Below, one piece after another: positions 1 to 25,910 of a stretch of DNA of 32,000 nucleotides; position 1 is the first letter of the stretch, and each line of letters starts with the position of its first letter. The DNA comes from Nitrososphaera viennensis EN76 (lineage in GTDB: Archaea > Thermoproteota > Nitrososphaeria > Nitrososphaerales > Nitrososphaeraceae): assembly GCF_000698785.1 (NCBI RefSeq), contig NZ_CP007536.1, positions 750,001 through 782,000 on the forward strand. The letters run 5' to 3'. A model generated the notes under the pieces. That model was not told the origin of the DNA and made no database searches. It saw only the letters and a program-made list of their open reading frames with translations. The position numbers and the translations under genes are program-made.

Positions 1-3000
1 TTGACAGTTTCAGAGGAGTAAACACTGAACGCACCGTCACGTTTTCACAGGGCGTCACGCTTATCCATGGCCTCAACGGCATGGGCAAGACCACGGTTTT
101 ACAGGCAATCGAGTGGTGTCTGACTGGCGAGATCCCAAGTTTTGAAGGGCCAGACTTTAAGGAAGAGGATGCCATCGTAAATTGCTTCACGGACAAGAAA
201 TCCGCGTCTGTTATCCTTACGCTAGAAGATACCACTTCCAACAGAATCATGACGGTGGAGCGCCGACGCAGGCGGTCCAAGAGCTCAAGCACAACCAAGA
301 CCAATACCTCGCTCAAGGTAGGGATTGACGGCAAAGAGTATGAAAATGATCGTGCGGTGGAAATTCTTTCGCAGTTGCTCGGTGTGGGTCTGGAAGACCT
401 TGCAAAGAACACGTACATCCGGCAGGATGCCATTGACCAATTACTCCATGAAAAGCCGGAGGAGAGGTCCCGGGCCCTCGACACGATCCTCGGCACCGAC
501 AAGATTCGGGGGTTCCTGGATGCCATCAACGTAAGCACTTCGAGGACCAGAAATTCACTCAAAGAAAAGATAGAGGGGATCGAGATAGGCAGGGTTCAGA
601 TTGCAACAGCGCTGCAGGAAGAGGCCGAGGAGACAAAGAACCGGCTGCTGGCTGGGGGGATGCACAAAGAAGACCTTAACTTGCAGCAGGCCGTCAAATC
701 TGCGGGCTCCCTCTTTGATAAGATAACCAGTCTGGCCACTGCAGTTGGCGCCAGACCGCCTGCAAAGGCGGCTATACCCGCTGACCCTTCCGAGCTCTAC
801 GAGAGCCTCGAGAAGTATGCAAAGGATGCCGATGAAATAGACCGCGCAAGACAGGAAGTTCACTCACAAAAGTCTAACCAGATAGCCAAAATCTCAGCAC
901 CGATGAGCTCTCTGCAAGGACTCCGGGAAGGGCTGCAACAGTACAGTGGCAAGGACGTGTCATCACTACGCGGCAGTCTGGTTCAGAAGGAGAATGAGCT
1001 GCGCGGAATTGCCGAAGAGCGGACAGCAATATCCCGAGAAATTGCGCGCCTTGGCAGTAATTCCCGAGCCATCGACAATGCGCTCAGGGACTATGAAAAT
1101 GCTAGGCTACAGCTCGACCAAGTCGCTGGAGGGCAAGATGTTCAGGCGCTGAAGAAGGAGGAAGCGGAACTTCAGGCACAGCACAGTTCCAACCTTGCTC
1201 AGCAGAATGAGGCTCGTATCACGGCAGAATCACTTGGTAAGACATTTGAAGAACTGGACAGGCTCGTAACTTCCTACCGGTCAGGTGTTGAGCAGATATC
1301 GTCGCTTGGATTCGACTCTGCGGATGGCAGAGGCACGCAACAGATAGAGTCACTGCAGGCATCCATAGATGAAATGAAGTCCAAGTCAAAGGAGGCCGGC
1401 GAGAAGCAGGTCAGGCTTGCAGGTCTGGTCTCGGAGCTTCGAACAAGCAGTTCTACCATCGCATCTGTTCGGCGCACCGCAGAAGAGCTTGAGGCAAAGA
1501 TATCCGCGTCGATCCAAAAGTTTGGCGATACTGAGGCAAGAACAAAACTCCAGGAGCAAAAGTCATCCAGCCTTCGGGAAATAAAACAATCGCTTGATTC
1601 CTTTAACACATACGATAGCCTCGTCGGGAAGGCAATGGAGTATATCCGTACGGTCCGGCCTCTAAACTGCCCTCTCTGCGAGAGGCCTTCAGAACCGGAC
1701 CATCTTCTGGCATTACTAAACTCAAAGGTGAAAGGTGATATTGCCAAGAAGATTCAAGACCTCTCTGCAAAGGCCACGCAAGAAAGCGAATACCTTGACG
1801 AGCTGGCAAAAGATACAGACGCGCTTTTGGGATATAGAAGGGACCTGGAAGTGCAAAAGACAAGGATTGCTGTCGAACTTTCCCGGCTATCGACCTTGTT
1901 AGGGGTTACAGTTAATGCCGACTTTGATTTTGAAGGAAAAATAAAAGAGCTATTGAAAGAGGCAGATTCTGCCCGGAGCCTTGCAATGGAGTTAGGGGGC
2001 CAGGTGCAAAAGTCAGAGATCAGGCTTGCAGAATTCAAACGTCTGCTGCAAAATAGGCAGGGCGCAGAGGAGAAGATACATGCGCTGCTGCGGTCCCGCG
2101 GCATCAATCTCGGCACCGGCAGCCTTGATGCAGAGTGCTCCACAATCTTGGAGGGCATAGCCAAGGAAAGGCAGCAGGCCAATAGAGACCTTGACCAATT
2201 GCTGTCGGGCGCAAACGAGGTCTTTGCAAAGCTGACAACAGTAAAATCAAAGGTCGCAGAAATTGGAAGGGCATCAACACGTGTCAAGTCTGCAGGAGAG
2301 ATACTCGCAGGGCTGCTCGCTGCAGACGCATCAACTTCTGGCGAGGTCCTCGCGGGGATGGCAAAGGAGGCCATTGAACTTGACAGTAAAGAGATCGAAA
2401 CGCTGACAGCAAAGGACAGGAATCTGGAAGAAAGCAAGACCACCAAGACCAGCGAAGCGGACCAGATAAGAAGTGACCTTGGCAACATGGCCAAACTGAT
2501 TGAGTCAAAGACACGTGCAGAGCGAGACCTGCAGTCTCTGCTCAAATCCAGCGAAGTGGACGAGCGGCTACTTCAGAAGGCTGATGAAGAACTTCAGGCG
2601 CTAAAGGCTATCGCAGAAAAATATTCCTCAAGCGGCCAGTATGCCCGCGAGATCTCGGAGGTCAAGAATGGGTATAAAGAATTGCTTGCAGGTCCGGTCA
2701 TTTTCTTGGTGCAGGAAAAGAAGGCAGAAGAGGCCATAGAAAAGGAAAACGCCCTCTCAAGGAAGAAGGAAGCACTTGAGGCAAATATGAGGGCGGTTGA
2801 AGCGCTCGAAGGTTCACTGCAGGCTATAAGGGAGGCTGCAAACGCGTACCTGCAGAACGAAGTACAGAACGTCATACGCAGCCACGGCGAGCAGATTGAT
2901 GCCATCTACAACAGAATCGTAAGACACCCTGCGTTCCAGCACATCGAAGTCGAAGTGGATACGAATGGACCCACAACATATTCTATCAAGGTCAAAGATT

Positions 3001-3335
3001 CCAGTGGCGGGATAACGACATCGGCGCCGGTACGCTTCAGCACGGCCCAGCTTAACAGTTTTGCCATATCAATCATGGTGGCAAACAGCATGAAAGCGGG
3101 GCTACCCTTTGCAGTCCTTATGATGGACGACCCAACACAGAGTATGGACAGGCCGCACAAGGAATACCTCGCGGAGTTAATATCTGACCTCATGGAGGAC
3201 AAGCAGATGATAATCGTTACATCAGACATCGAGTTCAAATCACTTGTACAAGAAAGATGCAAAGGAAACCTTCAGGACATCGAGCTCAGGGGCTGGTCAG
3301 AGGATGGGCCGGAAATAGTTGCCCGCACTATTTGA
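1..3335 (+). CDS. Rad50/SbcC/SMC-like ABC ATPase with long coiled coil and CxxC zinc hook (5' end truncated by window edge)
   Basis: Frame 3 is open from nt 3 (DSFRGVNTERTVTFSQGVTLIHGLNGMGKTT), so the true start lies just left of the window. Walker A GLNGMGKTT is at nt 69-95. A Q-loop-like YIRQD (Q at 423-425) is followed by EERSRALDTILG, as in Rad50/SbcC. About 900 aa of E/K/L/Q-rich heptad-like sequence follow. CPLC at 1668-1679 sits near the protein midpoint, the zinc-hook position. Signature-like FSTAQLN is at 3036-3056 and Walker B/D-loop FAVLMMDDPTQSMD at 3108-3149. The stop is TGA 3333-3335. Confidence 0.85.
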   Translation, partial: DSFRGVNTERTVTFSQGVTLIHGLNGMGKTTVLQAIEWCLTGEIPSFEGPDFKEEDAIVNCFTDKKSASVILTLEDTTSNRIMTVERRRRRSKSSSTTKTNTSLKVGIDGKEYENDRAVEILSQLLGVGLEDLAKNTYIRQDAIDQLLHEKPEERSRALDTILGTDKIRGFLDAINVSTSRTRNSLKEKIEGIEIGRVQIATALQEEAEETKNRLLAGGMHKEDLNLQQAVKSAGSLFDKITSLATAVGARPPAKAAIPADPSELYESLEKYAKDADEIDRARQEVHSQKSNQIAKISAPMSSLQGLREGLQQYSGKDVSSLRGSLVQKENELRGIAEERTAISREIARLGSNSRAIDNALRDYENARLQLDQVAGGQDVQALKKEEAELQAQHSSNLAQQNEARITAESLGKTFEELDRLVTSYRSGVEQISSLGFDSADGRGTQQIESLQASIDEMKSKSKEAGEKQVRLAGLVSELRTSSSTIASVRRTAEELEAKISASIQKFGDTEARTKLQEQKSSSLREIKQSLDSFNTYDSLVGKAMEYIRTVRPLNCPLCERPSEPDHLLALLNSKVKGDIAKKIQDLSAKATQESEYLDELAKDTDALLGYRRDLEVQKTRIAVELSRLSTLLGVTVNADFDFEGKIKELLKEADSARSLAMELGGQVQKSEIRLAEFKRLLQNRQGAEEKIHALLRSRGINLGTGSLDAECSTILEGIAKERQQANRDLDQLLSGANEVFAKLTTVKSKVAEIGRASTRVKSAGEILAGLLAADASTSGEVLAGMAKEAIELDSKEIETLTAKDRNLEESKTTKTSEADQIRSDLGNMAKLIESKTRAERDLQSLLKSSEVDERLLQKADEELQALKAIAEKYSSSGQYAREISEVKNGYKELLAGPVIFLVQEKKAEEAIEKENALSRKKEALEANMRAVEALEGSLQAIREAANAYLQNEVQNVIRSHGEQIDAIYNRIVRHPAFQHIEVEVDTNGPTTYSIKVKDSSGGITTSAPVRFSTAQLNSFAISIMVANSMKAGLPFAVLMMDDPTQSMDRPHKEYLAELISDLMEDKQMIIVTSDIEFKSLVQERCKGNLQDIELRGWSEDGPEIVARTI

Positions 3336-3349
3336 GGCTGCATTCAGGA

Positions 3350-3793
3350 ATGTCTGAAGAAGCAAGGATACGCGACGGGATAGAACTGGCCTCGGCAAGG
3401 AAGAGGTTGCAAGAGCTTGAGGCCAGAAAAACTGTCCTGTTGGCGCATCTTGCAGAATTAAGACAGGTGCTGGCCGGCACGAGGCCGGTTTCAGAGCTCA
3501 GCTCCGAGATGATATCCCGGTTCACCATAGATGTCAGAGGCGCCACTGACAGGTTCCTGCTCAGGGGCATCGAGGACAAGCTCGATTCTCTAGCAAGGGA
3601 GACCGATGCAAAGATCTTTAAACTTAAAGAGTTGCTGGCCCATGCAGCAATATGCCCACGGTGTAACGGCTCAGGTTCGATAGTTAAAGAGAGTGTAGAG
3701 AGGGACCCTGACAACGCGCCGGTTACACACATGACAGTCAGCAGCTGCCCCCAGTGTGGCGGCTCCGGTAAGGCAGAGGCTGAGATGATCTGA
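3350..3793 (+). CDS. Coiled-coil protein with two DnaJ-type CxxCxGxG zinc-finger units
   Basis: ATG 3350 lies 14 nt after the upstream stop and gives 147 aa. The N-terminal half is helical/heptad-like (LQELEARKTVLLAHLAELRQVL). CPRCNGSGS (3653-3679) and CPQCGGSGK (3746-3772) match the CxxCxGxG repeat of the DnaJ zinc-finger domain. The longer track ORF from 3257 overlaps the upstream gene and is not favoured. Confidence 0.65.
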   Translation: MSEEARIRDGIELASARKRLQELEARKTVLLAHLAELRQVLAGTRPVSELSSEMISRFTIDVRGATDRFLLRGIEDKLDSLARETDAKIFKLKELLAHAAICPRCNGSGSIVKESVERDPDNAPVTHMTVSSCPQCGGSGKAEAEMI

Positions 3794-3894
3794 TAGGACC
3801 GATATACTCTGCACTGTACGAAGCAGCCGTCAGCGAAAAGCAGATAGAGTCAAAGGGCAGAGCGTCAAAGGCCGGACACGAGTTTGAGGACAGG

Positions 3895-4440
3895 GTGGCA
3901 GAGGCGCTTGTTACGTTTTCTTCGGTAAGCGGGGTCAAGAAGAGGGCCACACTTGCCTACCCAACACTATCGGGCATGAAGCACCAGTACGATTGCATAT
4001 TTGTACTAGACGGCGCGACCTACGTCGTAGAGTGCAAGAAGCAGAACCAGCAGGCCTCAAAGAACCAGATATACTACTTCAACTCCACAATAACGGACCA
4101 CGCCCTTGGGATGAAAGTCGACGGCATCCAGGGCGAGATACGTGGCATTTTTCTTTCCACCACAGACCTTGACGAGCCGTCCGCGATATATGCTGTTTTC
4201 AGCGGCATCAGGGTGATAACTCCTGGCACGCCGCCACCGGAATACATGGCTGAAAGGACCGACCCGGCAAGTGATCTGTTCCGGATAATCAAGTCTGTCA
4301 TTTCAGGAATCCCTGCAAAAAACCCGCTGTTTTTCGATAAACTCAAAAGGCCTGACAGATCCGCGCCGACAGTTTACGAGGAATACATGACGGCTCTTGC
4401 GGAATGGAAGGCAGGCAGAGGGCAGAAGGAGGGGTCCTGA
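3895..4440 (+). CDS. Small PD-(D/E)xK (restriction-endonuclease fold) nuclease; 5' boundary uncertain
   Basis: YDCIFVLDGATYVVECKK has D at 3991-3993 and E-C-K at 4030-4038, giving a D-x12-ExK core. The first canonical start is GTG 3895. However, the frame is open from 3784 and the upstream extension encodes GHEFEDRV (see finding). The stop TGA 4438-4440 overlaps the next ATG by 1 nt. Confidence 0.7.
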   Translation: MAEALVTFSSVSGVKKRATLAYPTLSGMKHQYDCIFVLDGATYVVECKKQNQQASKNQIYYFNSTITDHALGMKVDGIQGEIRGIFLSTTDLDEPSAIYAVFSGIRVITPGTPPPEYMAERTDPASDLFRIIKSVISGIPAKNPLFFDKLKRPDRSAPTVYEEYMTALAEWKAGRGQKEGS

Positions 4441-5471
4441 TGGTCGATAGCGACGGCAGACTCCCCCGGTTCTCAAGGTTCGAGTATATACTGGACCTGC
4501 TCTCCACGGTGCACGATGGAGGGGCTGAAGGAACCGAACTGGCAGCTGTCCAGAAGGCGCTCTCTGACAGAAAAGAATCGTTTGAACAGGTAAAGCTCTT
4601 GGCCGTCGGAAAGCGCAAGTCTGTGAACAGGGGTGTAGAAGGTACGGAGGAGCTGACACGGGAGTGCCTGTCATTTGCGGTCAAGAGCGGGCTTGTGAGT
4701 GTCGATGTTTCCTCCCATGGAAGACTGACGCTCACCGACTTGGGACGTGAACTGCTTGCAGCTAGCAAAAAAAATGAGGTAAGTGGAACATTCATTGAAC
4801 GTATTGCCTCGCTCTACCTCTCGTCATACAGGAGGGCTTCAGGCGTCCTTCTCGCTATACTTGGGAGGGAAGGGGGTCAGGTTGACATCCCAGATACAAG
4901 GCATGGCGGGAGACTCACCCCCGAACAGATAGAAGAGATCTTGGGTGTCAGGTGCGATGCCGTCAGCCTGATAAGCTTCAGACTTTTGCTGGACCAGGCC
5001 CGGCTCGTCAACTGGTTCACCTTTACCGAGGGAGACGGAAGACTGATGTGGAGGATCTATGCAACATGCAAGATCTTCGACGTCAGCGACCCTCAACACC
5101 GGGGCGAGGGAGTGCTCTCCTTCAGGTCTCAGGGGCGCACTGTTACAATCAAGATGAACCAGACAAGCATAGAGGAATTTGAAGACGCTGCCTGGTCGGA
5201 ATACATGAAGTTGACAGATAACTATGAGGACATCCCTGTATACTACTGGCAGCTCCGCTCTCCAGTCTGCTACGGGTTAAGAATATCTGATAGCACTTAT
5301 GATTCCCTGCTGTTGGCGATGAAGGATAGCCGACGCTTCAGATTCAGCTGGTCTTCCGGCTCTATGCCTTCTAGCGAGGCCAAGGGCAACCTACTCAAGA
5401 ACCTACCGCCGATGGCAGCCGACGGGTACCATATGGTGTATGTGAGCATGAGCAGGAGGAAGACGGGTTGA
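4440..5471 (+). CDS. Hypothetical protein, winged-helix-like N-terminal region, no catalytic motif seen
   Basis: ATG 4440 overlaps the upstream TGA by 1 nt (translational coupling) and gives 343 aa. Segments such as FEYILDLLSTVHDGGAEGTELAAVQKAL and AVKSGLVSVDVSSHGRLTLTDLGRELL resemble helix-turn-helix plus wing. I recognise no other family signature. Confidence 0.6.
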   Translation: MVDSDGRLPRFSRFEYILDLLSTVHDGGAEGTELAAVQKALSDRKESFEQVKLLAVGKRKSVNRGVEGTEELTRECLSFAVKSGLVSVDVSSHGRLTLTDLGRELLAASKKNEVSGTFIERIASLYLSSYRRASGVLLAILGREGGQVDIPDTRHGGRLTPEQIEEILGVRCDAVSLISFRLLLDQARLVNWFTFTEGDGRLMWRIYATCKIFDVSDPQHRGEGVLSFRSQGRTVTIKMNQTSIEEFEDAAWSEYMKLTDNYEDIPVYYWQLRSPVCYGLRISDSTYDSLLLAMKDSRRFRFSWSSGSMPSSEAKGNLLKNLPPMAADGYHMVYVSMSRRKTG

Positions 5472-5476
5472 CCGAT

Positions 5477-6748
5477 ATGGAAAGAGGAGGGAACGGCATT
5501 TACACCCTATACGGCCTTTCTGATAACCCATTTCCGCAGAGCCCGACCGTAATAATAGACAGTCCCGATAAACGCCTTAATGGAAGGATCTTTTATGAAG
5601 GCATATTCCCAGACAAAGTGGCCAAGTTCAAGGAACTACTAGAAAAAAGGACAAACATGATCTATGTCCGTGGGAGCCAGTATGTCAAGGGGGACGGCAA
5701 GTCGGCTCTCATGGCCCATGCTTTCTTTATGTACGAGCGTAGGCAGGACACGGCCGTGGCGTTTATACGCTGTACTGGCAGAAACGGAAAGGTCAGTACG
5801 CCCGAACACTATTGCAGGGAGATCATACGGCAGCTCCACCAGCGGGGTTATCTGTGGAAAGCCTTTGGAGCTTTGACAAACATGTTCCTTGCAGAGAGCT
5901 CCAAGTACGTGTATGCTAGGCCAGGGGCTGCGCTGATGTTTAAAAAACACAACGTGCCACCAGATACGCTCCCTTTTACCAGATTCACCAACATTTCCCG
6001 GGTCGGCGAGTTTGCAAAGGTCCTCTCGGAATGGATTGTAGCAAAAACAGGATGCAGTGCCAAGTTCACACACGAGCTTGTCAAGGCCTACCTAGAACGG
6101 CCTGCCACCATGGAAAAGGAGGTTATCGTGAAGAATTCTGACAAGATTGAGGATTTTGGCGACTGTCTCAAGATATTGAGGGCTGGAGGGTTTGGCTGGT
6201 GCTATTTCTTTCTGGACCAGATGGAGGAGTCGCTTGACATACCTGCAGGTGCAATTGGCAATTTCACATCAGCACTCAGGCGGGTCATCGAGAAGAGTTC
6301 GGGTTTTGCCACACTCGTCGCGACCCTTCACGCCAGTTCAGTTCGGACCCTTCTTGATAACCCTGAAGGAAGGGTCAACATACAGAGCTTTGCGCCACTT
6401 GATGAGAATCATTATGTGACACTCTATCCTGACGACATAGTAAAAGACAACAGGGTGGTCGGACTGGTCGAGACGTACCTCCGAGAGTTCACCATTGATG
6501 CCACAAAACCATCTCCTTTTGACCCGCAAGTGATAAAGTACGTTGCACACCTGTACAGAGGTAACCTTCGAGAAATCCTAAGGACAATGCACCATATGAT
6601 CATGTCCGCAGCCAGCAAAAGACAACAATTGATAGACATGGCGTATGTCAAGGCAAACCATAACGAAGCTGTGGGAAAAGAGTTTTCAGAGGAGACGTAT
6701 CAGCAGTTCATGACATCGATGCAACTTGGCCGGAGACCTTCTTCCTGA
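5477..6748 (+). CDS. P-loop NTPase (AAA/ORC-like, deviant Walker A)
   Basis: The start is ATG 5477, or alternatively TTG 5468 overlapping the upstream stop in TTGA. P-loop-like GSQYVKGDGKSAL is at 5672-5707. Walker B-like CYFFLDQMEES lies near 6200-6232. ATLVATLH follows as a possible sensor-1 strand. The helical C-terminal part is consistent with an AAA lid. Confidence 0.65.
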   Translation: MERGGNGIYTLYGLSDNPFPQSPTVIIDSPDKRLNGRIFYEGIFPDKVAKFKELLEKRTNMIYVRGSQYVKGDGKSALMAHAFFMYERRQDTAVAFIRCTGRNGKVSTPEHYCREIIRQLHQRGYLWKAFGALTNMFLAESSKYVYARPGAALMFKKHNVPPDTLPFTRFTNISRVGEFAKVLSEWIVAKTGCSAKFTHELVKAYLERPATMEKEVIVKNSDKIEDFGDCLKILRAGGFGWCYFFLDQMEESLDIPAGAIGNFTSALRRVIEKSSGFATLVATLHASSVRTLLDNPEGRVNIQSFAPLDENHYVTLYPDDIVKDNRVVGLVETYLREFTIDATKPSPFDPQVIKYVAHLYRGNLREILRTMHHMIMSAASKRQQLIDMAYVKANHNEAVGKEFSEETYQQFMTSMQLGRRPSS

Positions 6749-6903: not shown

Positions 6904-9900
6904 CTATTCTTTGGTAATTCTGCCGGCTGACTGACCTCTCAGTCCCTCGATCCTGTCACGTATTCTCTCGATCTCCCCACGGGGATTGCGCCACCAGTTC
7001 CTGCTCCATATCCTTTCCACCACCCACCCCCTACTCTCCAAGAATTCTTGACGCATCACATCCCTTTCTCGGGTGCTCTTAGCAGAATGGAAAGTTGCTC
7101 CGTCGCATTCTATGCCGATGATATAGCGGAAAGGTTCATCCGGATGCACAACCGCCAAGTCTATTTTGTAACCCGAATAGCCTACCTGGGTATCCACCGT
7201 GTAACCTATCTGGGTCAGACGATCATGAACCATCTCTTCAAATGGACTCTCGAATAGAAAGCCGCTGGCGGAATTTTCTCGTTTAAAACCGTTATATAGC
7301 GAGGCAAGTATGACGCCTGCACTCTGACGATTGTTCTCGCTGATTGCCTTTGCGTATCGCAAATAGTCTTTCAGTCTCTTTGGCCCGCTATTTTTGGCTG
7401 CGTCAGTTCGAAGCTCGTCCGGATCAATTGAGCATACAACGACTATTTCCTTTCTGGCACGCGTCACAGCGACATTCAGACGGTTCTCTCCGCCCTCTTG
7501 GTTAAGCGAGCCAAACCTAATGTGCAGATTTCCATCCGGATCCCGCGCATATCCTACCGAGAAAATGATGATATCGCGCTCGTCTCCCTGCACGTTCTCT
7601 ATGTTCTTGACGAACGGTCTATCATCCAGCAAGTTGCTCTCTGGGTTTTCAGCCTCACCGTAAAGCGTGTCAAATTCCGGATCCTGTTTACGCCTCCTGT
7701 CTATTTCATCCAGTATTGCTATTTGCTGGGATTCATTGAAAGTGATTATGCCTATCGACTGGTGCTTCGTATTTTTCCTATCGTCTGTCAAGATTCTTTT
7801 GACTTCATCTATCACCAACTCTGCCTCCGGAATGTTCTTTCTATCGGTCCAGACACCATTCCCGCACTGTATCCACCTTATTGGCGGTTCGGCAGGAACC
7901 TTCAGTATGTTGGGGGACACCTGAAGATGTCCATCGTAGAAAGCGTGATTCGAGAAGTCAATAAGCTCTTGGTATTTTGACCGGTAATGCCACGCAAGGT
8001 ATCGGGGCCCATAAATCCTCTTGGCAAGAACTAGCAAGCTCTCAGAAAGCATAGTTTCGTCCACGAGCTCCTCTTCTAAACTTTCGTCATCGTCTCTGAC
8101 TCTGAACAGATCGAACGGACGGAGCTGTTTCTCGTCTCCCATTATCACTACATTTCCTCCCCGGTACAGCGACGGCAGGGACCGTTCTACAGCAGACTGA
8201 CTCGCTTCGTCGAAGATGATGAAATCAAATAGGTTCCGTTTCAGCGGGAATATTGTAGATGCCGCTTCAGGTGACACGAGCCAGCAAGGTGCGACATTGA
8301 ATATTACTGACTCGTACTTCTCTATCAGCATTCTGACTGGGAGGACGTGTCTTTTCTTGTCAAATTCGTCTGCCAGTTTGCTCCATTGCACATATTCTGC
8401 CCGATACGACCTCTTTCCGCCGGGAGTTAGACCGGGTTTCACTATCCCTGCTTCTATTTGAGCAGCAATCCTCTGGACCACCAGATTCTTATGTTCTTTC
8501 AAGAGCTTGGCAAGTCGTTCACGGTTTTGTAGATATGTCTCGAAGGGCTGGCCTTTCAAGGCAGGGTTTTCTCGCTCAATGTAATCGATCCAATGGGCAT
8601 AGAACTCCTCCCTTACCACATCTGCCCAGTTGGTTTCCGACATCAATTTCATTGTGCATTCCTGAAGGACTTTTCTCTGCATGGGTGTCATAGCGGCTTT
8701 TCTTGCATCGTATGCTTGGAGGGCATCGAAATCTGCAAGAGATTCATGCATTTCTGAAAACCTTGAGTGCAGGTCGGCCAGCCGGCCGGTGGAAATCATC
8801 GAATTGATCCCATCAAATCCAGACTCATTCAGATATTTCGACAGGTTCTCGATGTTCCTCCATATCTCCAGACCTCCTTTTGCCCGCTGTATCATGCGGG
8901 TTACCCATAGCGGGTCGTCACGGACGTCTTGTACGCCGAGTATCCTCTTTGCATTGGAATGGGCTTCAACCCATCGCCCCTTCAACTTGCGGAACATTCC
9001 ACGTTCGCTCTCAAGAATGCGGAGTGCTTCCAAGAGGACGTTCTGGTCATGCATGGTGGAGGCAACGAGGGGTTCTGGCTCCTTGCTGCCAAGCTGCGTT
9101 ACAAGGGTTCTCAGTATTTCACTGATCCCGTTCTTGTCGTTGAACCCAAGTACAGAGAAGTCTTTTCTATGAACCCACGGATGTGTGATGTTATCGAATC
9201 TTTTGCAGCTATCTTCAGCGTTCTTGATTGCTTCAAGTAACTGTGGTAAATCTAGGTAACTGGTGCTAGCTGCAATTTTGGACAAGTCAAGTCGAGGTAC
9301 GTATCCGGGTTTGGCCGCTATGTAGAGCTGGTGCACTGTTAGGCCTCCAAAATACTCCTTCCACAAGGCGTCCACGATGCGTCTTTGCATGCCCACAATC
9401 TTATCTATCTCCTGAGAAACGGCATCAAACCTTGACTTCATAGAACCTGGATTGACACTGTTTATGCCCGTCGGACTCAGCAATCTTCCGAGTTGTTGGT
9501 ACAGTTCCTGCCTATCTGTTACGGGATCGTGCAGCAATGCAGCATACTTTCCAAGGCCTACCTTGTCAAGACGTTGGTAAACGACGTCAAGAGCGGCCCT
9601 CTTCTGGCAGATGACAAGCACCTTCTTTCCCTTGGCCAAGGCATCAGCGATCAGGTTTACTATGACCTGCGACTTGCCCGTTCCGGGAGGCCCGCGTACA
9701 ACTGTACATTCATTGTTGTGGGCAGCCACTATGACACTGTCTTGACTGGAATCGCTATCAAGTGCAATATTTAGGTCCATTGCAGAAATGTCGTCAAGAA
9801 CCACCGATTCGGCTTCTTTGTCTCCGTTTCCTTCGCTCCAGATATCTTCTGTTGCTGGTGCCTCCAGCAAGTCATCTATAACGCCAAGATTGATTTCGCC

Positions 9901-10944
9901 AGACAGGACCTTCTTCAGCAACTCTTCATAATCTGCATAGATTGCAGTGTTGCCTTGTGGAAAGTTGCCAATAATTTTGAAGTTCACAAGATGGAGGCCC
10001 TGTCTGGGCATGGTAGATTCGTCTTGAGACGAGACTGGTTCCAACGTCTCGATCTTTTCGAGCCTATTCTCGGACGACTTCAAGGGAATGTTATTCCTGA
10101 TTAGCAGGTCGATTAGCCCCTGCAAGAAGAGCGATTCAACATCATGATTCTTGCCAGTGCCTTTGTCACCGTTGTTCAGGTTCTGCCGTTCATCTGCAAG
10201 ATCCAATAGATCCTCGAACTCATCATAAAACGATTCTGAAAATGAATATCCACCGATCTTTTTTAATGCCACAAGTAACGCCCGGTTCAATATCGGACTC
10301 TTGTCCTTCGAAAACGAGGCATACCAGCCCGGCGGCTTTCCATTTTCTCGGCGCTCTAGGGACATAGGAAAAAGTACCAGTGGTGCTCTGACATAGGTGT
10401 CCTGACCGATATGACCTTCAAGAAACGGAAAACCCAGATAGTTGTCCTTCAATCCAGTTTCGCGTTCTACCTGTGTGATGTTTCGATAAAGTGACTTTAG
10501 CTTCACCTTGGACTTTTCAGCAAGCTCCGAGTCGTCCGAGTCTGCAACAACACAAACCCCATTCTTGCCAAGAAGTGCCCTTTCGGCTACTTTTTCCGCC
10601 AGGCTGCTACCTCTGACTATAATCTTAGATAAATCGAAGCACCACTTGTCGTATATGCGGCGTAGCGTTATAGATCGATTTCTGCTTTCTATCTGGAGGA
10701 GCTTGTCGCGGTAACGTTCAAGTTTCTTGTACAATGCTGACTGTTGGGCGTCATTGTCTACTGTCTTTGCTTGCATGCTGGTCTGAGGAAAATCACCTGC
10801 GCGAACATCAGAAGGCACTTCGCTACCTACCTTAGCCTCTGCGGCAACACTCTGGGCCTGCGTCCAATTTTGTCGCACTCCGCAAGTTGGACAGAAATTC
10901 GCTTTATCCGGGATTTGTTGCCCGCAGTTAGTGCAGTAAGGCAA
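6904..10944 (-). CDS. Zn-ribbon + Upf1/DNA2-like SF1 helicase + C-terminal Vsr/DUF559-like endonuclease fusion (1346 aa)
   Basis: An N-terminal zinc ribbon reads CTNCGQQIPDKANFCPTCG. Walker A GPPGTGKS is at + coordinates 9670-9693 and Walker B IIFDEASQ at 8197-8220. Further helicase motifs are GDEKQLRPF, NVQGDERDIIIFS and RLNVAVTRARKEI. The C-terminal YKIDLAVVHPD...IGIECDGATFHSA (7081-7119)...RDVMRQEFLESRGWVVERIW matches the very-short-patch-repair-like nuclease domain. The start codon is TTG (10944-10942). Confidence 0.9.
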   Translation of the reverse strand: MPYCTNCGQQIPDKANFCPTCGVRQNWTQAQSVAAEAKVGSEVPSDVRAGDFPQTSMQAKTVDNDAQQSALYKKLERYRDKLLQIESRNRSITLRRIYDKWCFDLSKIIVRGSSLAEKVAERALLGKNGVCVVADSDDSELAEKSKVKLKSLYRNITQVERETGLKDNYLGFPFLEGHIGQDTYVRAPLVLFPMSLERRENGKPPGWYASFSKDKSPILNRALLVALKKIGGYSFSESFYDEFEDLLDLADERQNLNNGDKGTGKNHDVESLFLQGLIDLLIRNNIPLKSSENRLEKIETLEPVSSQDESTMPRQGLHLVNFKIIGNFPQGNTAIYADYEELLKKVLSGEINLGVIDDLLEAPATEDIWSEGNGDKEAESVVLDDISAMDLNIALDSDSSQDSVIVAAHNNECTVVRGPPGTGKSQVIVNLIADALAKGKKVLVICQKRAALDVVYQRLDKVGLGKYAALLHDPVTDRQELYQQLGRLLSPTGINSVNPGSMKSRFDAVSQEIDKIVGMQRRIVDALWKEYFGGLTVHQLYIAAKPGYVPRLDLSKIAASTSYLDLPQLLEAIKNAEDSCKRFDNITHPWVHRKDFSVLGFNDKNGISEILRTLVTQLGSKEPEPLVASTMHDQNVLLEALRILESERGMFRKLKGRWVEAHSNAKRILGVQDVRDDPLWVTRMIQRAKGGLEIWRNIENLSKYLNESGFDGINSMISTGRLADLHSRFSEMHESLADFDALQAYDARKAAMTPMQRKVLQECTMKLMSETNWADVVREEFYAHWIDYIERENPALKGQPFETYLQNRERLAKLLKEHKNLVVQRIAAQIEAGIVKPGLTPGGKRSYRAEYVQWSKLADEFDKKRHVLPVRMLIEKYESVIFNVAPCWLVSPEAASTIFPLKRNLFDFIIFDEASQSAVERSLPSLYRGGNVVIMGDEKQLRPFDLFRVRDDDESLEEELVDETMLSESLLVLAKRIYGPRYLAWHYRSKYQELIDFSNHAFYDGHLQVSPNILKVPAEPPIRWIQCGNGVWTDRKNIPEAELVIDEVKRILTDDRKNTKHQSIGIITFNESQQIAILDEIDRRRKQDPEFDTLYGEAENPESNLLDDRPFVKNIENVQGDERDIIIFSVGYARDPDGNLHIRFGSLNQEGGENRLNVAVTRARKEIVVVCSIDPDELRTDAAKNSGPKRLKDYLRYAKAISENNRQSAGVILASLYNGFKRENSASGFLFESPFEEMVHDRLTQIGYTVDTQVGYSGYKIDLAVVHPDEPFRYIIGIECDGATFHSAKSTRERDVMRQEFLESRGWVVERIWSRNWWRNPRGEIERIRDRIEGLRGQSAGRITKE

Positions 10945-11046: not shown

Positions 11047-11067
11047 GACAGAATCTAGAATTTGGTC

Positions 11068-14000
11068 ATGGCTGTCAGCCTGAATGAAGAGCAGAGGAAG
11101 GCCGTCGAGCACGAAGGTGGTCCACTGCTCGTTGTCGCTGGACCGGGGAGTGGCAAGACAAGGGTAATCGTAGAGCGAGTAAAACATCTCATCACAAAGG
11201 GATTCAGGCCAGCAGAGATCTTGTGTCTAACATTTTCTGACAAGGCTGCCGCTGAAATGCAGAGTCGTATTAAAAAAGAAGCAGGTACAACTGAAGTTGA
11301 AACTTCAACCTTCCATTCCTTCTGTCTGTCTATTCTTGAAGATAGCGTTCTTGAAACAGGCGTGAGTTTCAAATCCGGGTTGATTTCAAGGACCAACCAG
11401 CTGGTATGGGGGCTCAAGAACATCGATAGTTTCAACTTTGAATATATCGAAGTGGGAAACAATGCGGTTGATGTCATAGAATCCATCGTTGACGGAATTA
11501 GCGCGTTTAGAGACGAGCTGGTCAGCCCTGCAAGACTGAAAGAATACCTGACAGAAAAGAAAGCGGAACTCGAACAGCTGAAGAAGAATGCGTCGGACGG
11601 GGCAACTATGCCAGAGAACGCCTCTGCGCCTTCCAAACAGGACAAAAGGAGGAAAGCAAAGGAAAGGAGCGGCGCTGATGAGGAAAATGGGAATAACTCT
11701 GCAGAGATAGACGAGAAAATTGCCTTCCTAAGCCAGCTGGAGGACCTGCAGAAGGTCTACGAAAGATACGAGCAATTCAAGCGAAAAGAGTCGCTTATCG
11801 ATTACGACGACATGATACAGGTAGTCATTGAACTGTTCAAGAGCCGTCCGGATGTACTCAGACGCTACCAGAACAGATACGCACACGTCTTGGTTGACGA
11901 ATTCCAGGACAACAACTATGCGCAGCTGGAGCTGGTCAAGCTCTTGTGCCCGAGCGGCAACGTAACAGTGGTAGGAGACGACGACCAGAGCATATACAGA
12001 TTCAGAGGCGCATATCTTACCGTTTTCGACGATTTCAGGGATCACTTTAAGGAGAATGCGACTACGATTAAACTCGAGAGGAACTACCGCAGCACAAAGA
12101 ACGTCGTCGCGCTTGCAAAGCAACTTCTCGATCCGGTTCCAAACAGGGTCAGCAAGGGCCTCTTCTCTGAGAATGAAGATGGTGGAAAGGTGATAGTTGC
12201 AAGGTGCGCCACGGACGCGGCAGAAATAGACTTTGTAGTCAACAAGATAAAGAACGACCTTCTGGGCAAGGAGCTCAAAAGACGTGACGGTGCCATCTCG
12301 CCGATAACGTATAGGGACATCGCCGTCCTTTCAAGAAGGAGGCTTGAGGGAATAAAGTTTGCAAGGGCAATCAAGGCACACGGTCTGCCATGCACGTTCA
12401 TTGGAGAAGCAAGGATATTTTCAACTCCTGTAATCCGGGATTTGCTGGCTTACCTACGGGTGGCAGACGATCCCCTTGGAAATGGCATAGAGATTGCCCG
12501 CATAATGATAAACCACGGGGTAACTGAACAGAACGTCAAGATAATCAACCACGCGGCGAAGGCAAAGGCCAGAGAACTGGTAAAGAGAATTGACAGGACG
12601 GAGAGCGGGATTTCTGCAAAAGAAGATGCCGACAACAACCGCAACTACGGGACAGACTTTGTCTACGACGTGATGGAGCAGCTGGTCGCAGACCCCGATT
12701 CTTCATCGGTGTCGCAGGTCATAACCCAGAAGGACCTGATAAAAGACATTGTTTACCAGATAAGGGCAATAGTGGGACTGCGGAACAAGTCTCCCGTAGG
12801 CCAGTTTGTATTTGAACTCGTAATGTCCAAGACAGACCTGTACAAGAGGGCGCTTAACGACAGCTCTGAGGAATCCATACGCAACCGCCTGATTCTGCAT
12901 GAATTTCTCAAGATAGCGCAAGAGTTTGAGGCCATAGCCAAGCGCCCGGCCCTGAAAGACTTTTTGGACCACTTGAACCTGATGAGCGACTTTGACATCG
13001 AGATAAGGCAGGGTGAGGAGGAGGCAGATTCGATAATAGTAACTACGATACACCAGAGCAAGGGCAAAGAGTTTCCTATCGTCTTTGTAGTAGACGTTGC
13101 AGACAGGAAATTACCGCTACAATTTAGAGAGAAAAAGTTCTACTGCCCAAGCGACCTTTCACGCGGGCTGAAATTCAGAGACCTTGACGAAAAGGAACTG
13201 TACCTGCAAGAAGAGAGACGCCTGCTGTATGTGGCAATGACAAGGGCGCAGCACCACCTTTTCCTTACACTGGCCGAGATTTATGGCGATAACGTTCGAA
13301 AGACAAAGCCTTCCAAGTTTCTGGTTGAACTAAATTTTGAGAACAACCGGCTTGTAGAACTTGTCAGCTATGATGCGGCAACTGAGGCGCCGGTGCTTGT
13401 CTCTGATAGCAAAGTAGAGCAACTCAAACACGAATACCAGTTGCTGGCCACGAAATTTGTCAACCAGATGCAGCTAAAGAGCGCGGTTGAAAAGGTGATA
13501 GAGCTTGCCATGATACTCCACTACCAGTCAGGAAAACCGCTTTCTGACTTTAGGATCGACCAGATAATTTCGCCAGACATATCTGTTGACAGAAATCACG
13601 TCGAGGCTCAGCTAAAGAGCGAGCACGCGTCCCTCTTGGAGAAGGACAGCATGCATTTCAGTGCATCATCTCTGAATACGTACCAGGACTGCCCCCTCCA
13701 GTACAAATTCTCCCGGGTGCTTGAGGTGCCCACGCTTCCAAAGACGTTCTTTGACCTTGGAAAGGCAGTCCATTCGGTAGTCGAAGTCCTGACAAAGAGG
13801 CAGATAAACGAGCAAGGATACCTTCCGACAAAGCAAGATGCAATAGGTCTCCTTGACAGGTACTGGGTTTCAAGCACCTATCAAACGGCAAAGGCTGAGG
13901 AAGAGGACCGCACAAGCGCCGAGAAGATGCTCGAATTCTATGTCAGATGGTGCGAGCAGAGAGTCAGAGAAGGTTACACTCCTTTTGCTGCAGAGAAGAA

Positions 14001-21900: not shown

Positions 21901-21956
21901 AATTTCTTACCAGGGCAGTAATCCCTAAAACATAGCTGTTGCTACCTGAAATATCC

Positions 21957-24632: not shown

Positions 24633-24637
24633 CTAAA

Positions 24638-25744: not shown

Positions 25745-25886
25745 GAGTAATCATGCTCCTTGAAGGATGTCTGCAAGACAATTACAACTACACCGGAATT
25801 GGTTGATGTGGTATAAAACGTAGCTATGCCGTGAGGGGGAGGGGGTGTCCGCTGGCGCAGAATTCCTCGAATTTATTAAGCAGTTT

Positions 25887-25906
25887 ATTCGACTAAGATT
25901 CGACTA
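25887..25906 (+). promoter_or_regulatory. Tandem 9-bp direct repeat between TATA-like box and ATG of the Gp37/Gp68 gene (putative operator)
   Basis: ATTCGACTA occurs at 25887-25895 and again at 25898-25906, an 11-bp period. It lies immediately 3' of TTTATT (25884-25889) and ends 4 nt before ATG 25911. Confidence 0.25.
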
Positions 25907-25910
25907 GTTC

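What the first reader, a model, noticed from the sequence alone, without database searches (positions are those of the whole stretch)
1..6748. Five-gene coupled operon built around a Rad50/SbcC-type zinc-hook ATPase without Mre11/SbcD: candidate new SMC-family surveillance/defence system
Seen in sequence: a >=1095-aa ABC ATPase has Walker A (69-95), a mid-coil CPLC hook (1668-1679) and Walker B DDPTQSMD (3108-3149). It ends about 60 aa after Walker B with no effector domain. Four more genes follow with 14-nt, overlapping, 1-nt-overlap and about 5-nt junctions. These are a coiled-coil 2x CxxCxGxG protein, a 181-aa PD-(D/E)xK nuclease, a wHTH-like 343-aa protein and a P-loop NTPase. Established knowledge: Rad50/SbcC pairs with Mre11/SbcD. 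Lamassu (LmuB SMC + LmuA effector + LmuC), Wadjet (SMC + kleisin + KITE wHTH + nuclease) and RloC (zinc-hook ATPase + tRNase, DDPxxSxD Walker B) are defence precedents. Inference: this composition, gene order and protein size match none of those as I know them. The wHTH protein could be a kleisin/KITE analogue and the nuclease the trans effector.
Basis: partly seen in the sequence, partly recalled or inferred. Interest (0 to 1): 0.8.

Follow-up and report, generated by a model that had tools for sequence, protein, structure and literature searches.

The report
Zinc-hook ATPase plus nuclease/AAA+ defence operon
An ammonia-oxidising archaeon carries a rare, uncharacterised gene cluster, probably for antiviral defence, that joins a Lamassu/SbcC-type DNA-sensing zinc-hook ATPase to a separate three-protein unit (nuclease, triple winged-helix protein, ORC/BrxC-like AAA+ ATPase) that elsewhere works with a SIR2 enzyme instead.

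Summary
All motif coordinates and the tightly packed genes are real. The window matches Nitrososphaera viennensis.

Three corrections:
- The nuclease is 216 aa, with a non-canonical start at 3790, not 181 aa.
- A conserved 54-aa gene (S) sits just upstream of the ATPase, outside the window.
- The Zn-finger protein (Z) is accessory.

The ATPase is of the "long LmuB" (Lamassu) type. It matches PADLOC LmuB at 8e-55, has one CPxC hook and has Walker B hhhhDD. No partner matches LmuA, LmuC, Mre11, kleisin or KITE.

About 30 related loci show two modules:
- S + ATPase (± Z).
- Nuclease + triple-wHTH protein (W) + ORC/Cdc6/BrxC/TnsC-like AAA+ (P).

Every nuclease-type N-W-P trio with enough flanking DNA lies next to S-A, in five different arrangements. 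Distant W-P pairs instead follow a SIR2 gene, beside restriction-modification genes and with no SMC-like ATPase. W is therefore not a kleisin/KITE analogue.

Neighbouring genes are typical of defence islands.

Verdict: a candidate composite defence system and a new variant of the Lamassu-like SMC kind. The mechanism is inferred, not shown.

The parts
3..3335 (+). A: zinc-hook SMC-like ABC ATPase of the long-LmuB/SbcC type. About 10 N-terminal codons are cut off by the window edge. Motifs: Walker A 69-95, Q-loop 414-431, CPLC hook 1668-1679, signature FSTAQ 3036-3050, Walker B plus D-loop MMDDPTQSMD 3120-3149, H-loop 3150-3167.
   Evidence: sequence. Pfam AAA_23 2.5e-19 and SMC_N 1.8e-10. PADLOC LmuB PDLC03865 8e-55 and PDLC03859 2e-45; homologue P0003 aligns end to end; the nearest solved relatives are archaeal Rad50 heads, 3e-9; hook and hhhhDD are present in all complete ATPases examined.
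3350..3793 (+). [not shown]
   Evidence: DnaJ_CXXCXGXG 8.8e-5, below the Pfam cut-off; both motifs are invariant in 12 orthologues. Z follows the ATPase in about 14 loci and is absent in L003, L005, L007, L008 and L015; weak anti-TRAP and DnaJ matches.
3790..4440 (+). N: 216-aa PD-(D/E)xK nuclease. Motif I GHEFED 3874-3891, motif II YDCIF 3988-4002, motif III VECKK 4027-4041. It has a roughly 80-aa helical tail. The start is non-canonical (CTG 3790 or ATA 3793). The mechanical ORF from GTG 3895 would lack motif I.
   Evidence: orthologues of 210-224 aa. (3 synonymous to 1 non-synonymous change upstream of 3895). (E33, D68, E81, K83 invariant in 16/16). (CARF_PDDEXK models, 7e-5 for the L003 orthologue). 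No structure was predicted.
4440..5471 (+). W: 343-aa protein made of three tandem winged-helix domains. It has an invariant N-terminal peptide RLPRFSRFEY (4458-4487). It always sits between the effector gene and P.
   Evidence: AF2 model, pLDDT 84, pTM 0.84. (best match FokI 2fok_B, E 1.9e-3, probability 0.96; then tandem-WH proteins). (only 107 relatives among 1.84 billion representatives). (no family match).
5477..6748 (+). P: 423-aa AAA+ ATPase of the ORC/Cdc6-BrxC-TnsC clade. Motifs: N-terminal NPFP 5525-5536, Walker A KGDGKSA 5687-5707, Walker B FFLDQMEE 6206-6229, lid GNLREILR 6560-6583. It has no winged-helix domain of its own. An alternative TTG start lies at 5468.
   Evidence: AF2 model, pLDDT 88. 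(BrxC 9zll_B 1.7e-5; TnsC 8fcu_Q 5e-5; Cdc6/Orc1 2qby_A 1e-4). (invariant motifs). (100 % identical to an NCBI hypothetical protein of Nitrososphaera viennensis).

Best explanation
This is a composite, two-module DNA-surveillance (defence) system.

Module 1 is the zinc-hook ABC ATPase A, with a 54-aa helical partner S encoded just upstream (outside the window) and the optional coiled-coil/zinc-finger protein Z.
- A is a relative of long LmuB and SbcC.
- I infer that A dimerises through the CPxC hook.
- I infer that it uses ATP-driven head engagement, slowed by the Walker B E-to-D change, to recognise DNA ends or abnormal replication structures of an invader. Rad50, SbcC and LmuB work this way.

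Module 2 is N-W-P.
- The AAA+ ATPase P lacks a winged-helix domain of its own.
- The triple-wHTH protein W, together with P, would form a DNA-bound ORC/BrxC-like platform split over two polypeptides.
- That platform would carry the small PD-(D/E)xK nuclease N as the executing enzyme.
- Distant relatives of the platform carry a SIR2 NADase instead and work without module 1.

In the nuclease-type systems I infer that module 1 supplies or gates the trigger, and that N then cuts DNA.

Shown computationally: the domain identities, the intact catalytic motifs, the conserved linkage and the effector swap.

Inferred only: all protein contacts, the nature of the trigger, and whether the outcome is invader-specific cleavage or abortive infection.
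For: 1. The ATPase belongs to the LmuB/SbcC lineage and has all ABC motifs.
   - PADLOC LmuB 8e-55 and 2e-45.
   - End-to-end alignment for P0003, L012 and L024.
   - One CPxC hook and hhhhDD in all complete members. These are the published marks of long LmuB (PMC12663957).
2. S always directly precedes A, including where the gene order is permuted: L005, L031-L033, L035, L036 and L041.
3. Linkage of the two modules.
   - Every nuclease-type N-W-P trio with enough flanking DNA is adjacent to S-A.
   - Five different arrangements occur: SA(Z)NWP; NWPSA(Z); NWP and A-S convergent; P-W-N and S-A divergent; S-A-Z and P-W-N convergent.
   - This holds in Nitrososphaerota and Bathyarchaeia with ATPase identity down to 28 %.
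   - In the window the genes overlap or are at most 14 nt apart.
4. Effector exchange, a hallmark of defence systems.
   - Loci L043-L047 have SIR2_2 in place of N, followed by W and P homologues. They match my P profile at 1e-25 to 1e-52 and my W profile at 1e-17 to 1e-21.
   - They lie beside restriction-modification genes, and in L043 also beside a PDC-S68 helicase.
5. Catalytic residues are conserved: N E33/D68/E81/K83 in 16/16, and the Walker A/B motifs and arginines of P.
6. Defence-island context.
   - Window: Hhe/ProA-like helicase-nuclease, type IIG/DrmMI-like methyltransferase, PLD-SNF2, HD, and a PDC-M41 pair.
   - L005: AbiJ, PLD, a methyltransferase and an OLD-like ATPase with PIN.
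   - L007: type I S subunit.
   - L018: type IIG methyltransferase plus a BrxL-like protein.
7. Patchy, rare distribution: 107 W relatives among 1.84 billion representatives.
Against: - There is no experimental evidence of any kind.
- No complex prediction could be run, so every contact (S-A, Z-A, W-P, N-platform, module 1-module 2) is inference.
- S-A-Z occurs without N-W-P within 3-8 kb in L012 (between housekeeping genes), L013, L016 and L018.
- SIR2-W-P occurs without S-A. Each module can therefore exist alone, and adjacency may reflect synergy rather than one machine.
- The loci were found with pattern- or word-seeded searches, so the co-occurrence counts are not exhaustive.
- The AF2 models rest on shallow alignments (7 and 11 sequences).
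- Foldseek TM-scores are low: 0.32 for W against FokI and 0.44 for P against BrxC.
- Bacterial relatives of the ATPase sit next to AddAB-like genes, which fits a repair role as well as a defence role.
Confidence: 0.5

Rival explanations
1. Two independent defence systems share a defence island. S-A-Z would be a stand-alone SMC-like system and N-W-P a stand-alone effector/AAA+ system. They would be neighbours without working as one machine.
Against: All nuclease-type trios with enough flanking DNA are directly adjacent to S-A, in five arrangements and two archaeal lineages. Defence-island neighbours normally change between such distant genomes. In the window and in L004/L028/L029 the start of N overlaps the stop of Z, which suggests co-translation.
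Confidence: 0.17
2. This is simply a divergent long Lamassu. S would be a shrunken LmuC. N, perhaps with W, would stand for LmuA. The mechanism would be the published one: LmuB senses DNA ends, then the effector oligomerises and aborts infection.
For: LmuB profiles are by far the best matches of the ATPase. It has the long-type marks hhhhDD and a single CxxC. S sits just before the ATPase, as LmuC sits before LmuB. Lamassu is reported from Thaumarchaeota genomes.
Against: No LmuA or LmuC model matches S, Z, N, W or P. The best values are LmuA 0.069 over a 27-residue stretch and LmuC 0.039 in 1 of 12 W proteins. N is 216 aa and has no room for the long LmuA C-terminal domain. An AAA+ ATPase is not part of any described Lamassu. 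W-P also function with SIR2 and without any LmuB. The gene number and order differ.
Confidence: 0.13
3. This is a DNA-repair or recombination complex. A Rad50/SbcC-like clamp would use a PD-(D/E)xK nuclease in place of Mre11/SbcD to process double-strand breaks or hairpins in the host or in an integrated element.
For: The nearest solved relatives are Rad50 heads. Bacterial relatives (L024) are followed on the same strand by AddB- and AddA-like helicase-nucleases. An AddA-like gene lies at 11062-14400 in the window. S-A-Z in L012 lies among housekeeping genes.
Against: The distribution is very patchy and rare. Gene orders are shuffled. The system is embedded among restriction-modification and other defence genes. 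The nuclease is replaced by a SIR2 NADase in the sister trios, which makes no sense for repair. Walker B is DD rather than DE. The ATPase fails the Rad50 equivalog cut-offs: 65 bits against 1087.
Confidence: 0.1
4. This is a maintenance, partition or replication-control module of an integrated conjugative element. An ORC-like AAA+ with wHTH proteins would mark an origin and an SMC-like protein would organise the element's DNA.
For: P belongs to the initiator clade of AAA+. The window also holds Orc1/Cdc6 and ParB-N genes and a UvrD-like helicase. The integrative-conjugative element NitVie-E3 of N. viennensis is reported to carry Cdc6/Orc1 and a UvrD-like helicase (PMC6563490). An integrase is near L013 and L043.
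Against: N keeps an invariant nuclease active site, and the SIR2 alternative points to a killing or cleaving output. No P homologue was found in 72,556 plasmid or 50,697 phage records. Several loci show no element genes nearby.
Confidence: 0.05

Closest known systems
Long-type Lamassu (LmuA-LmuC-LmuB; e.g. the Bacillus cereus B4077 hydrolase-protease system)
   Same: The SMC-like zinc-hook ABC ATPase is closest to LmuB profiles. It has a single CxxC and Walker B hhhhDD. Short forms are about 800 aa. A small gene sits immediately upstream of the ATPase. It lies in a defence island. The logic of a DNA sensor joined to a separate effector is similar.
   Different: No LmuA: there is no effector fused to the LmuA C-terminal docking domain. 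No detectable LmuC. Extra partners are present (Z, the triple-wHTH W, the AAA+ P). In the window the ATPase comes first rather than last in the operon. The Nitrososphaera form is 1120 aa, longer than described long LmuB.
Rad50-Mre11 / SbcCD
   Same: ABC heads separated by long arms with a central CxxC zinc hook. The nearest solved structures are archaeal Rad50 heads. It is paired with a nuclease.
   Different: No Mre11/SbcD phosphoesterase. The nuclease is a small PD-(D/E)xK protein. Walker B is DD rather than DE. It falls far below the Rad50 equivalog cut-offs. It is rare and patchy rather than a core gene.
BrxC (BREX) and ORC/Cdc6-type AAA+ ATPases with wHTH domains
   Same: The best structural matches of P are the BrxC N-terminal ATPase, Cdc6/Orc1 and TnsC. 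BrxC carries a wHTH - alpha/beta - wHTH triad after the ATPase (PMC12839542). W supplies three wHTH domains in trans.
   Different: W and P are separate proteins, with W encoded first. There is no PglZ, PglX or BrxB and no BrxC coiled-coil tail. There is no sequence-level match to BrxC models in PADLOC.
Tn7-type TnsA-TnsC
   Same: An initiator-clade AAA+ (TnsC-like fold) is encoded with a small PD-(D/E)xK nuclease and a DNA-binding selector protein.
   Different: No DDE transposase and no transposon ends were examined or seen. The similarity is at fold level only, and the order and context differ.
Wadjet / MksBEFG (SMC + kleisin + KITE + nuclease)
   Same: An SMC-superfamily ATPase is encoded with winged-helix proteins and a nuclease.
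   Different: It has a hook, not a hinge. There are no JetA, JetB or JetD matches. JetC matches at only 0.006, in one homologue. W occurs without any SMC-like ATPase, so it is not a KITE or kleisin.
SIR2-based multi-gene defence systems (SIR2-HerA, Thoeris, SPARSA)
   Same: The sister trios SIR2-W-P use a defence-type SIR2 (PADLOC Aga_SIR2 and SIR2 models, 1e-17 to 1e-21) coupled to an ATPase.
   Different: The partners are W and P, not HerA, TIR or Argonaute. The window's own system uses a nuclease.

Membership tests
Lamassu (long type) | LmuB: SMC-like ABC ATPase matching LmuB profiles | tested here: met
   PADLOC PDLC03865 8.3e-55 and PDLC03859 2.3e-45. P0003 aligns at 6-1106 against 4-992 of 1007 profile positions.
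Lamassu (long type) | Single CxxC zinc hook and Walker B hhhhDD (PMC12663957) | tested here: met
   CPLC at 1668-1679 and LMMDD at 3117-3131. The same holds in all complete homologues. The definition is read.
Lamassu (long type) | LmuA: effector domain fused to the conserved LmuA C-terminal docking domain | tested here: not met
   No LmuA model matches N, W, P or Z at E<0.05. The only hit is 0.069 over 27 residues of the nuclease motif in one orthologue. N is 216 aa.
Lamassu (long type) | LmuC: middle component encoded just before LmuB, SbcD-CTD-like in long systems | tested here: inconclusive
   A 54-aa gene S always precedes the ATPase. It has no LmuC profile hit and no PDB sequence match. 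Its fold was not modelled. The LmuC hit of W (0.039) occurs in 1 of 12 members only.
Rad50-Mre11 / SbcCD | Mre11/SbcD calcineurin-like phosphoesterase partner | tested here: not met
   No Metallophos match in any operon protein. None is listed next to the ATPase in the related loci.
Rad50-Mre11 / SbcCD | Rad50/SbcC equivalog-level sequence match and Walker B hhhhDE | tested here: not met
   NCBIfam Rad50 models score 42-65 bits against cut-offs of 700-1087, on the N-terminal head only. Walker B is DD.
Wadjet / Mks (SMC-kleisin-KITE) | Hinge-type SMC (JetC) with kleisin JetA, KITE JetB and Toprim JetD | tested here: not met
   No JetA, JetB or JetD hits. JetC matches at 0.0062 in one homologue only. 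There is a hook instead of a hinge. W is found without any SMC-like ATPase.
RloC | Zinc-hook ATPase fused to a C-terminal anticodon-nuclease domain | tested here: not met
   The ATPase ends 67 aa after Walker B. No RloC model is among the listed PADLOC matches: 25 of 55 families are shown for the window protein, and all 23 for homologue P0003.
PD-(D/E)xK nuclease superfamily (protein N) | Motifs E ... D ... (D/E)xK on the restriction-endonuclease core | tested here: met
   E33, D68 and E81-C-K83 are invariant in 16/16. CARF_PDDEXK profile hits reach 7e-5. The fold itself was not modelled.
AAA+ initiator clade (ORC/Cdc6, TnsC, BrxC) (protein P) | AAA+ fold with Walker A/B and a lid carrying a sensor-2 arginine | tested here: met
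   AF2 model of pLDDT 88. Foldseek probability 1.00 to BrxC, TnsC and Cdc6/Orc1. GDGKS, DQME(D/E) and GNLR are conserved.
BREX | BrxC together with PglX methyltransferase, PglZ and BrxA/B | tested here: not met
   No PglZ, BrxA or BrxB is in the operon, and P gives no BrxC profile hit. A truncated BrxL-like gene is adjacent in L015 and L018 only.

The most novel reading that the evidence does not exclude
This is a previously undescribed archaeal immune architecture. A self-standing 'effector + triple-wHTH + split ORC/BrxC-like AAA+' system with exchangeable effectors (PD-(D/E)xK nuclease or SIR2) has, in its nuclease form, become obligately coupled to a Lamassu/SbcC-lineage zinc-hook ATPase. 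That ATPase has its own mini-partner (S) and neither LmuA nor LmuC. An SMC-like DNA sensor would then signal to an AAA+ switch rather than directly to an effector.
Probability: 0.4. Interest if true: 0.75.

Novelty: new variant of a known kind. Interest (0 to 1): 0.62.

Why it matters
SMC-like ATPases of the Rad50/SbcC/LmuB lineage are emerging as sensors of foreign DNA. So far they are known to act with Mre11/SbcD or with LmuA/LmuC.

This locus shows the same sensor type joined to a different partner set. The effector platform in that set also exists on its own with a SIR2 enzyme.

If the linkage is functional, it gives:
- a natural test case for how a zinc-hook ATPase passes a signal to an unrelated AAA+ machine;
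- a new effector-swapping family (effector-W-P) that current catalogues miss;
- one of the few candidate defence systems specific to Nitrososphaerota and Bathyarchaeia, whose virus defence is little studied.

It also bears on the proposed path from SbcCD through long Lamassu to short Lamassu, by adding a side branch with a 54-aa partner in the place of LmuC.

Tried and rejected
- **Kleisin/KITE reading of W: rejected.**
  - W co-varies with P and the effector, not with the ATPase.
  - W occurs in SIR2 trios without any SMC-like protein.
  - MukBEF appears only at rank 50 of the fold search.
- **LmuC reading of W: rejected.** The 0.039 hit is seen in 1 of 12 family members.
- **181-aa gene model for the nuclease: rejected** in favour of 216 aa.
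- **Five-gene unit: replaced** by S + A (± Z) plus N-W-P.
- **Homology between the archaeal nuclease N and the 176-aa D...ExK protein that follows the bacterial ATPases: not detected.** hhalign probability was 0.2 %.
- **The bacterial small upstream protein resembles S only weakly.** hhalign E 6e-4, probability 29 %.
- **Sequence searches of the PDB gave nothing usable.** This applies to N, W, P and S. Z gave only weak anti-TRAP/DnaJ zinc-finger and coiled-coil matches.
- **No P homologue in the plasmid or phage collections**.
- **Viral structure library search for W: no significant match**.
- **Bacterial-type promoter and terminator scan: uninformative for an archaeon**.
- **Some resources were not available.**
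  - The Krishnan et al. 2020 ABC-ATPase classification, which may describe this clade.
  - The supplementary tables of the 2025 Lamassu paper. I therefore could not check whether the N. viennensis ATPase is already listed as a long LmuB.
- **Literature searches found no description of this gene set**.

Full report
**What is in the window**

Bases 1-6748 carry five co-directional genes on the + strand. I name them as follows.
- A: ATPase, 3-3335.
- N: nuclease, 3790-4440.
- W: winged-helix protein, 4440-5471.
- P: P-loop ATPase, 5477-6748.

Q-loop, signature (FSTAQ), D-loop and H-loop are also present, and the protein ends 67 residues after Walker B.

The junctions are 14 nt, a 4-nt overlap, a 1-nt overlap and 5 nt.

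P is 100 % identical to an NCBI hypothetical protein of Nitrososphaera viennensis that lies on a 2.53-Mb contig. The window therefore comes from that ammonia-oxidising archaeon or a near-identical strain.

**Corrections to the observation**

1. The nuclease gene.
   - The mechanical ORF starts at GTG 3895 (181 aa).
   - Orthologues are 210-224 aa and align with the window's frame upstream of 3895.
   - That stretch contains the invariant motif-I glutamate (GHEFED, 3874-3891).
   - It differs from the 94 %-identical locus L001 by three synonymous changes and one non-synonymous change.
   - There is no ATG, GTG or TTG in frame after the preceding stop. Translation must therefore start at CTG 3790 or ATA 3793, overlapping the stop of Z.
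2. A conserved small gene.
   - A 51-61-aa helical, acidic ORF (S) lies immediately upstream of the ATPase in every related archaeal locus that extends that far.
   - In this window it would lie just beyond base 1.

**What the proteins are**

A (ATPase):
- Pfam sees only generic AAA_23 and SMC_N.
- NCBIfam Rad50 and SMC models match the N-terminal head far below their cut-offs.
- The nearest solved relatives by sequence are archaeal Rad50 heads, 3e-9.
- PADLOC gives strong matches to two LmuB models, 8e-55 and 2e-45. The homologue P0003 aligns with the 1007-position model from end to end.
- The 2025 Lamassu study defines 'long' LmuB as close to SbcC, about 800 aa, with a single CxxC and Walker B hhhhDD (PMC12663957).
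- All complete ATPases of this family (706-1121 aa) have one CPxC-type hook and hhhhDDP(T/S)Q.
- A is therefore a long-LmuB-type protein.

N: has the PD-(D/E)xK signature E33 ... D68 ... E81-x-K83, invariant in 16 of 16. It gives weak profile hits to CARF-associated PD-(D/E)xK domains.

W: has no sequence family.
- Its AlphaFold2 model (pLDDT 84) is three tandem winged-helix domains.
- The best match is the three-wHTH recognition domain of FokI (E 1.9e-3, probability 0.96). Other tandem-WH proteins follow.

P: modelled at pLDDT 88.
- It is an AAA+ ATPase of the initiator clade. Its best matches are BrxC, TnsC and Cdc6/Orc1.
- It has conserved Walker A/B motifs and a GNLR lid motif.
- It has no winged-helix domain of its own.

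**Conservation and the two-module structure**

I assembled about 30 distinct related loci from four sources:
- the protein collection;
- a pattern scan of GTDB genomes;
- a pattern scan of metagenomes with the P profile;
- an exhaustive HMMER search with the W profile.

I mapped all six proteins onto these loci with my own HMMs.

Three facts emerge.

1. S and A are always adjacent and co-directional, and Z follows A in about half of the loci.
2. N, W and P always occur in that order as a block.
3. Every nuclease-type N-W-P block with enough flanking DNA lies next to S-A, but in five different arrangements:
   - S-A-(Z)-N-W-P (window, L001-L004, L007, L008, L028, L029);
   - N-W-P-S-A-(Z) (L005, L031-L033, L041);
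   - N-W-P convergent with A-S (L035, L036);
   - P-W-N divergent from S-A (L015, L019);
   - S-A-Z convergent with P-W-N (L014, L020).

The hosts are Nitrososphaerota and Bathyarchaeia, and ATPase identity falls to 28 %. Such persistence through rearrangement argues for a functional link, not chance adjacency.

Each module can also stand alone.
- S-A-Z occurs without N-W-P within 3-8 kb in L012 (between SHMT/PGK and thiolase genes), L013, L016 and L018.
- The more distant members of the W family sit in a different trio:
  - a SIR2_2 protein of 304-347 aa;
  - then W;
  - then a P homologue, which matches my P profile at 1e-25 to 1e-52.
- These trios have no SMC-like ATPase nearby and lie beside restriction-modification genes. 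L043 lies beside MT-A70 plus BglII, and L044/L045 beside N6_N4_Mtase plus EcoO109I.
- The SIR2 proteins match defence-type SIR2 models, while W and P again match nothing in PADLOC.

An effector-W-P unit with exchangeable effectors (nuclease or NADase) is the pattern typical of defence systems.

Bacterial relatives of the ATPase (Dehalococcoidales and Caldisericia, about 710 aa):
- They keep a small upstream ORF, weakly S-like (hhalign E 6e-4).
- They are followed by an unrelated 176-aa protein with a D...ExK motif.
- In L024, AddB- and AddA-like genes come next.

**Context**

The rest of the window is a defence island, possibly inside an integrated element.
- A Hhe/ProA/PDC-S37-like DUF4011 helicase fused to an MTES_1575 nuclease, 6904-10944, minus strand.
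- A UvrD-PD-(D/E)xK AddA-like protein.
- A type IIG/DrmMI-like methyltransferase, overlapped by a PLD-SNF2 helicase.
- An HD protein.
- A PDC-M41A homologue, a radical-SAM gene and a DUF5131 protein that matches PDC-M41B.
- Then Orc1/Cdc6 and a ParB-N protein.

Krupovic et al. report that the integrative-conjugative element NitVie-E3 of N. viennensis carries Cdc6/Orc1 and a UvrD-like helicase (PMC6563490). I could not verify that the window lies in it.

Other loci are flanked by:
- AbiJ, PLD, a methyltransferase and an OLD-like ATPase with PIN (L005);
- a type I S subunit (L007);
- HNH (L008);
- a type IIG methyltransferase plus a truncated BrxL-like ATPase (L018).

**How it most likely works (inference)**

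- By analogy with Rad50/SbcC and LmuB, A should dimerise through the zinc hook. ATP-dependent head engagement would then let it recognise DNA ends or aberrant replication structures.
- The E-to-D change in Walker B, shared with long LmuB, suggests slow hydrolysis.
- S sits where LmuC, or the Rad50-binding C-terminus of SbcD, is encoded. It is a candidate head or coiled-coil-base binder.
- W plus P together resemble an ORC/BrxC-type AAA+ with its wHTH domains supplied in trans. BrxC carries a wHTH - alpha/beta - wHTH triad after the ATPase (PMC12839542).
- I propose that W-P form a DNA-bound switch that holds and activates the effector: N here, SIR2 elsewhere.
- In nuclease-type systems, the S-A(-Z) sensor would gate that switch.
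- None of these contacts was tested, because the structure-prediction quota allowed only the W and P monomers.

**Comparison with known systems**

- Lamassu: the ATPase meets the LmuB and long-type criteria. LmuA is absent, LmuC is undetectable, an AAA+ ATPase is foreign to Lamassu, and W-P function without any LmuB. This is not a Lamassu member as defined, but a relative built on the same sensor.
- SbcCD/Mre11-Rad50: not a member. There is no phosphoesterase, Walker B is DD, and scores are below the cut-offs.
- Wadjet: not a member. It has a hook rather than a hinge and no kleisin, KITE or Toprim protein.
- RloC: not a member. There is no fused nuclease domain.
- BREX: not a member. Only the fold of P is shared.

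**Novelty and limits**

- Pfam, NCBIfam and PADLOC (2023) have no family for W or P, apart from sub-threshold Pfam matches for P.
- Only 107 W relatives exist among 1.84 billion representative proteins.
- Full-text searches found no description of the gene set.
- I could not read the 2020 Aravind-lab ABC-ATPase classification or the supplementary tables of the 2025 Lamassu paper. Either may already list this ATPase clade.
- I rate it a new variant of a known kind: Lamassu-like, SMC-based defence with a new partner module.
- The defence function and the coupling of the two modules are plausible but unproven.

Noticed in passing
window 3781-3895: The nuclease gene has no ATG, GTG or TTG in frame between the preceding stop (3781-3783) and GTG 3895. 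Yet the conserved N-terminus, including catalytic motif I, is encoded there. The start must be CTG 3790 or ATA 3793, overlapping the stop of Z. The 94 %-identical loci L001 and L002 have the same CTG-ATA.
   Followed up: partly
just upstream of window base 1; L001:4335-4499, L003:133-297, L005:11261-11431: A conserved 51-61-aa acidic helical ORF (S; consensus ...LP..eD..LLk.Ll.....GGkeAv..l...i..l.G) always directly precedes the ATPase, even when the gene order is permuted. It is a candidate analogue of LmuC or the Mre11 Rad50-binding domain.
   Followed up: partly
window 6904-10944 (-): A 1346-aa protein with a zinc ribbon, DUF4011, an SF1 helicase (AAA_11/AAA_12) and an MTES_1575 nuclease. 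It matches PADLOC PDC-S37 (1.5e-203), Hhe and NCBIfam ProA, all below the equivalog cut-offs. It is convergent with the operon. A related helicase lies within about 4 kb of the operon in L001, L002, L007 and L008.
   Followed up: partly
window 11062-14400 (+); L024:4410-10972: A UvrD helicase fused to PD-(D/E)xK (AddA-like) lies 4.3 kb downstream. In the Dehalococcoidales locus L024, AddB- and AddA-like genes follow the related small-ORF/ATPase/176-aa trio directly on the same strand.
   Followed up: partly
window 14538-23324 (+): A type IIG/DrmMI-like methyltransferase (1383 aa) is overlapped by a PLD-SNF2 helicase (PADLOC C3a139 2e-69, DrmD-like) and followed by an HD/HD_assoc_2 protein. This is a DISARM-like or type IIG-like set. 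A homologous PLD-SNF2 gene also neighbours the bacterial ATPase in L021.
   Followed up: no
window 23655-26681: A PDC-M41A-like gene (23655-24632, -), a radical-SAM/SPL-like gene (24638-25744, -) and a DUF5131 gene matching PDC-M41B/M30B at 1e-104 (25911-26681, +). Together they form a candidate defence pair with a radical-SAM partner.
   Followed up: no
window 27023-28225 and 30716-31825 (+): Orc1/Cdc6 and ParB-N-domain genes. With the UvrD-like helicase, they fit the published description of the integrative-conjugative element NitVie-E3 of N. viennensis (PMC6563490). Element borders were not checked.
   Followed up: partly
L043:8957-12123; L044:7278-10433; L045:3221-6364; L046:349-3514; L047:2151-4060: Recurrent three-gene units SIR2_2 - W homologue - P homologue, without any SMC-like ATPase, lie beside restriction-modification genes. 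In L047 the contig ends at W, so no P homologue is seen there. This is an apparently undescribed SIR2-based candidate defence system.
   Followed up: partly
L015:4399-5835 (-); L018:10415-11851 (+): A 478-aa BrxL-like protein (BrxL_N plus the BrxL ATPase domain; the alignment stops at position 470 of the 680-position BrxL model) sits directly after P in L015 and directly after Z in L018. It may be a further optional partner.
   Followed up: no
L019:7892-8113, 13201-13729; L020:5596-8077: Apparent decay. In L019 only fragments of W and P remain around an intact S-A-Z. In L020 the ATPase is split into four ORFs, which could be pseudogenisation or long-read assembly errors.
   Followed up: no
L021:7187-10078; L022:8992-11672; L023:3-2503; L024:1345-4229: A bacterial minimal version (Dehalococcoidales, Caldisericia). 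In L021 and L024 it is a roughly 80-aa ORF with an acidic tail, then a roughly 710-aa zinc-hook ATPase (Walker B FDDPSQSM), then a 176-198-aa protein with a DIDA...FE(V/L)K motif that is not detectably related to N. L022 and L023 show only the ATPase and that protein.
   Followed up: partly
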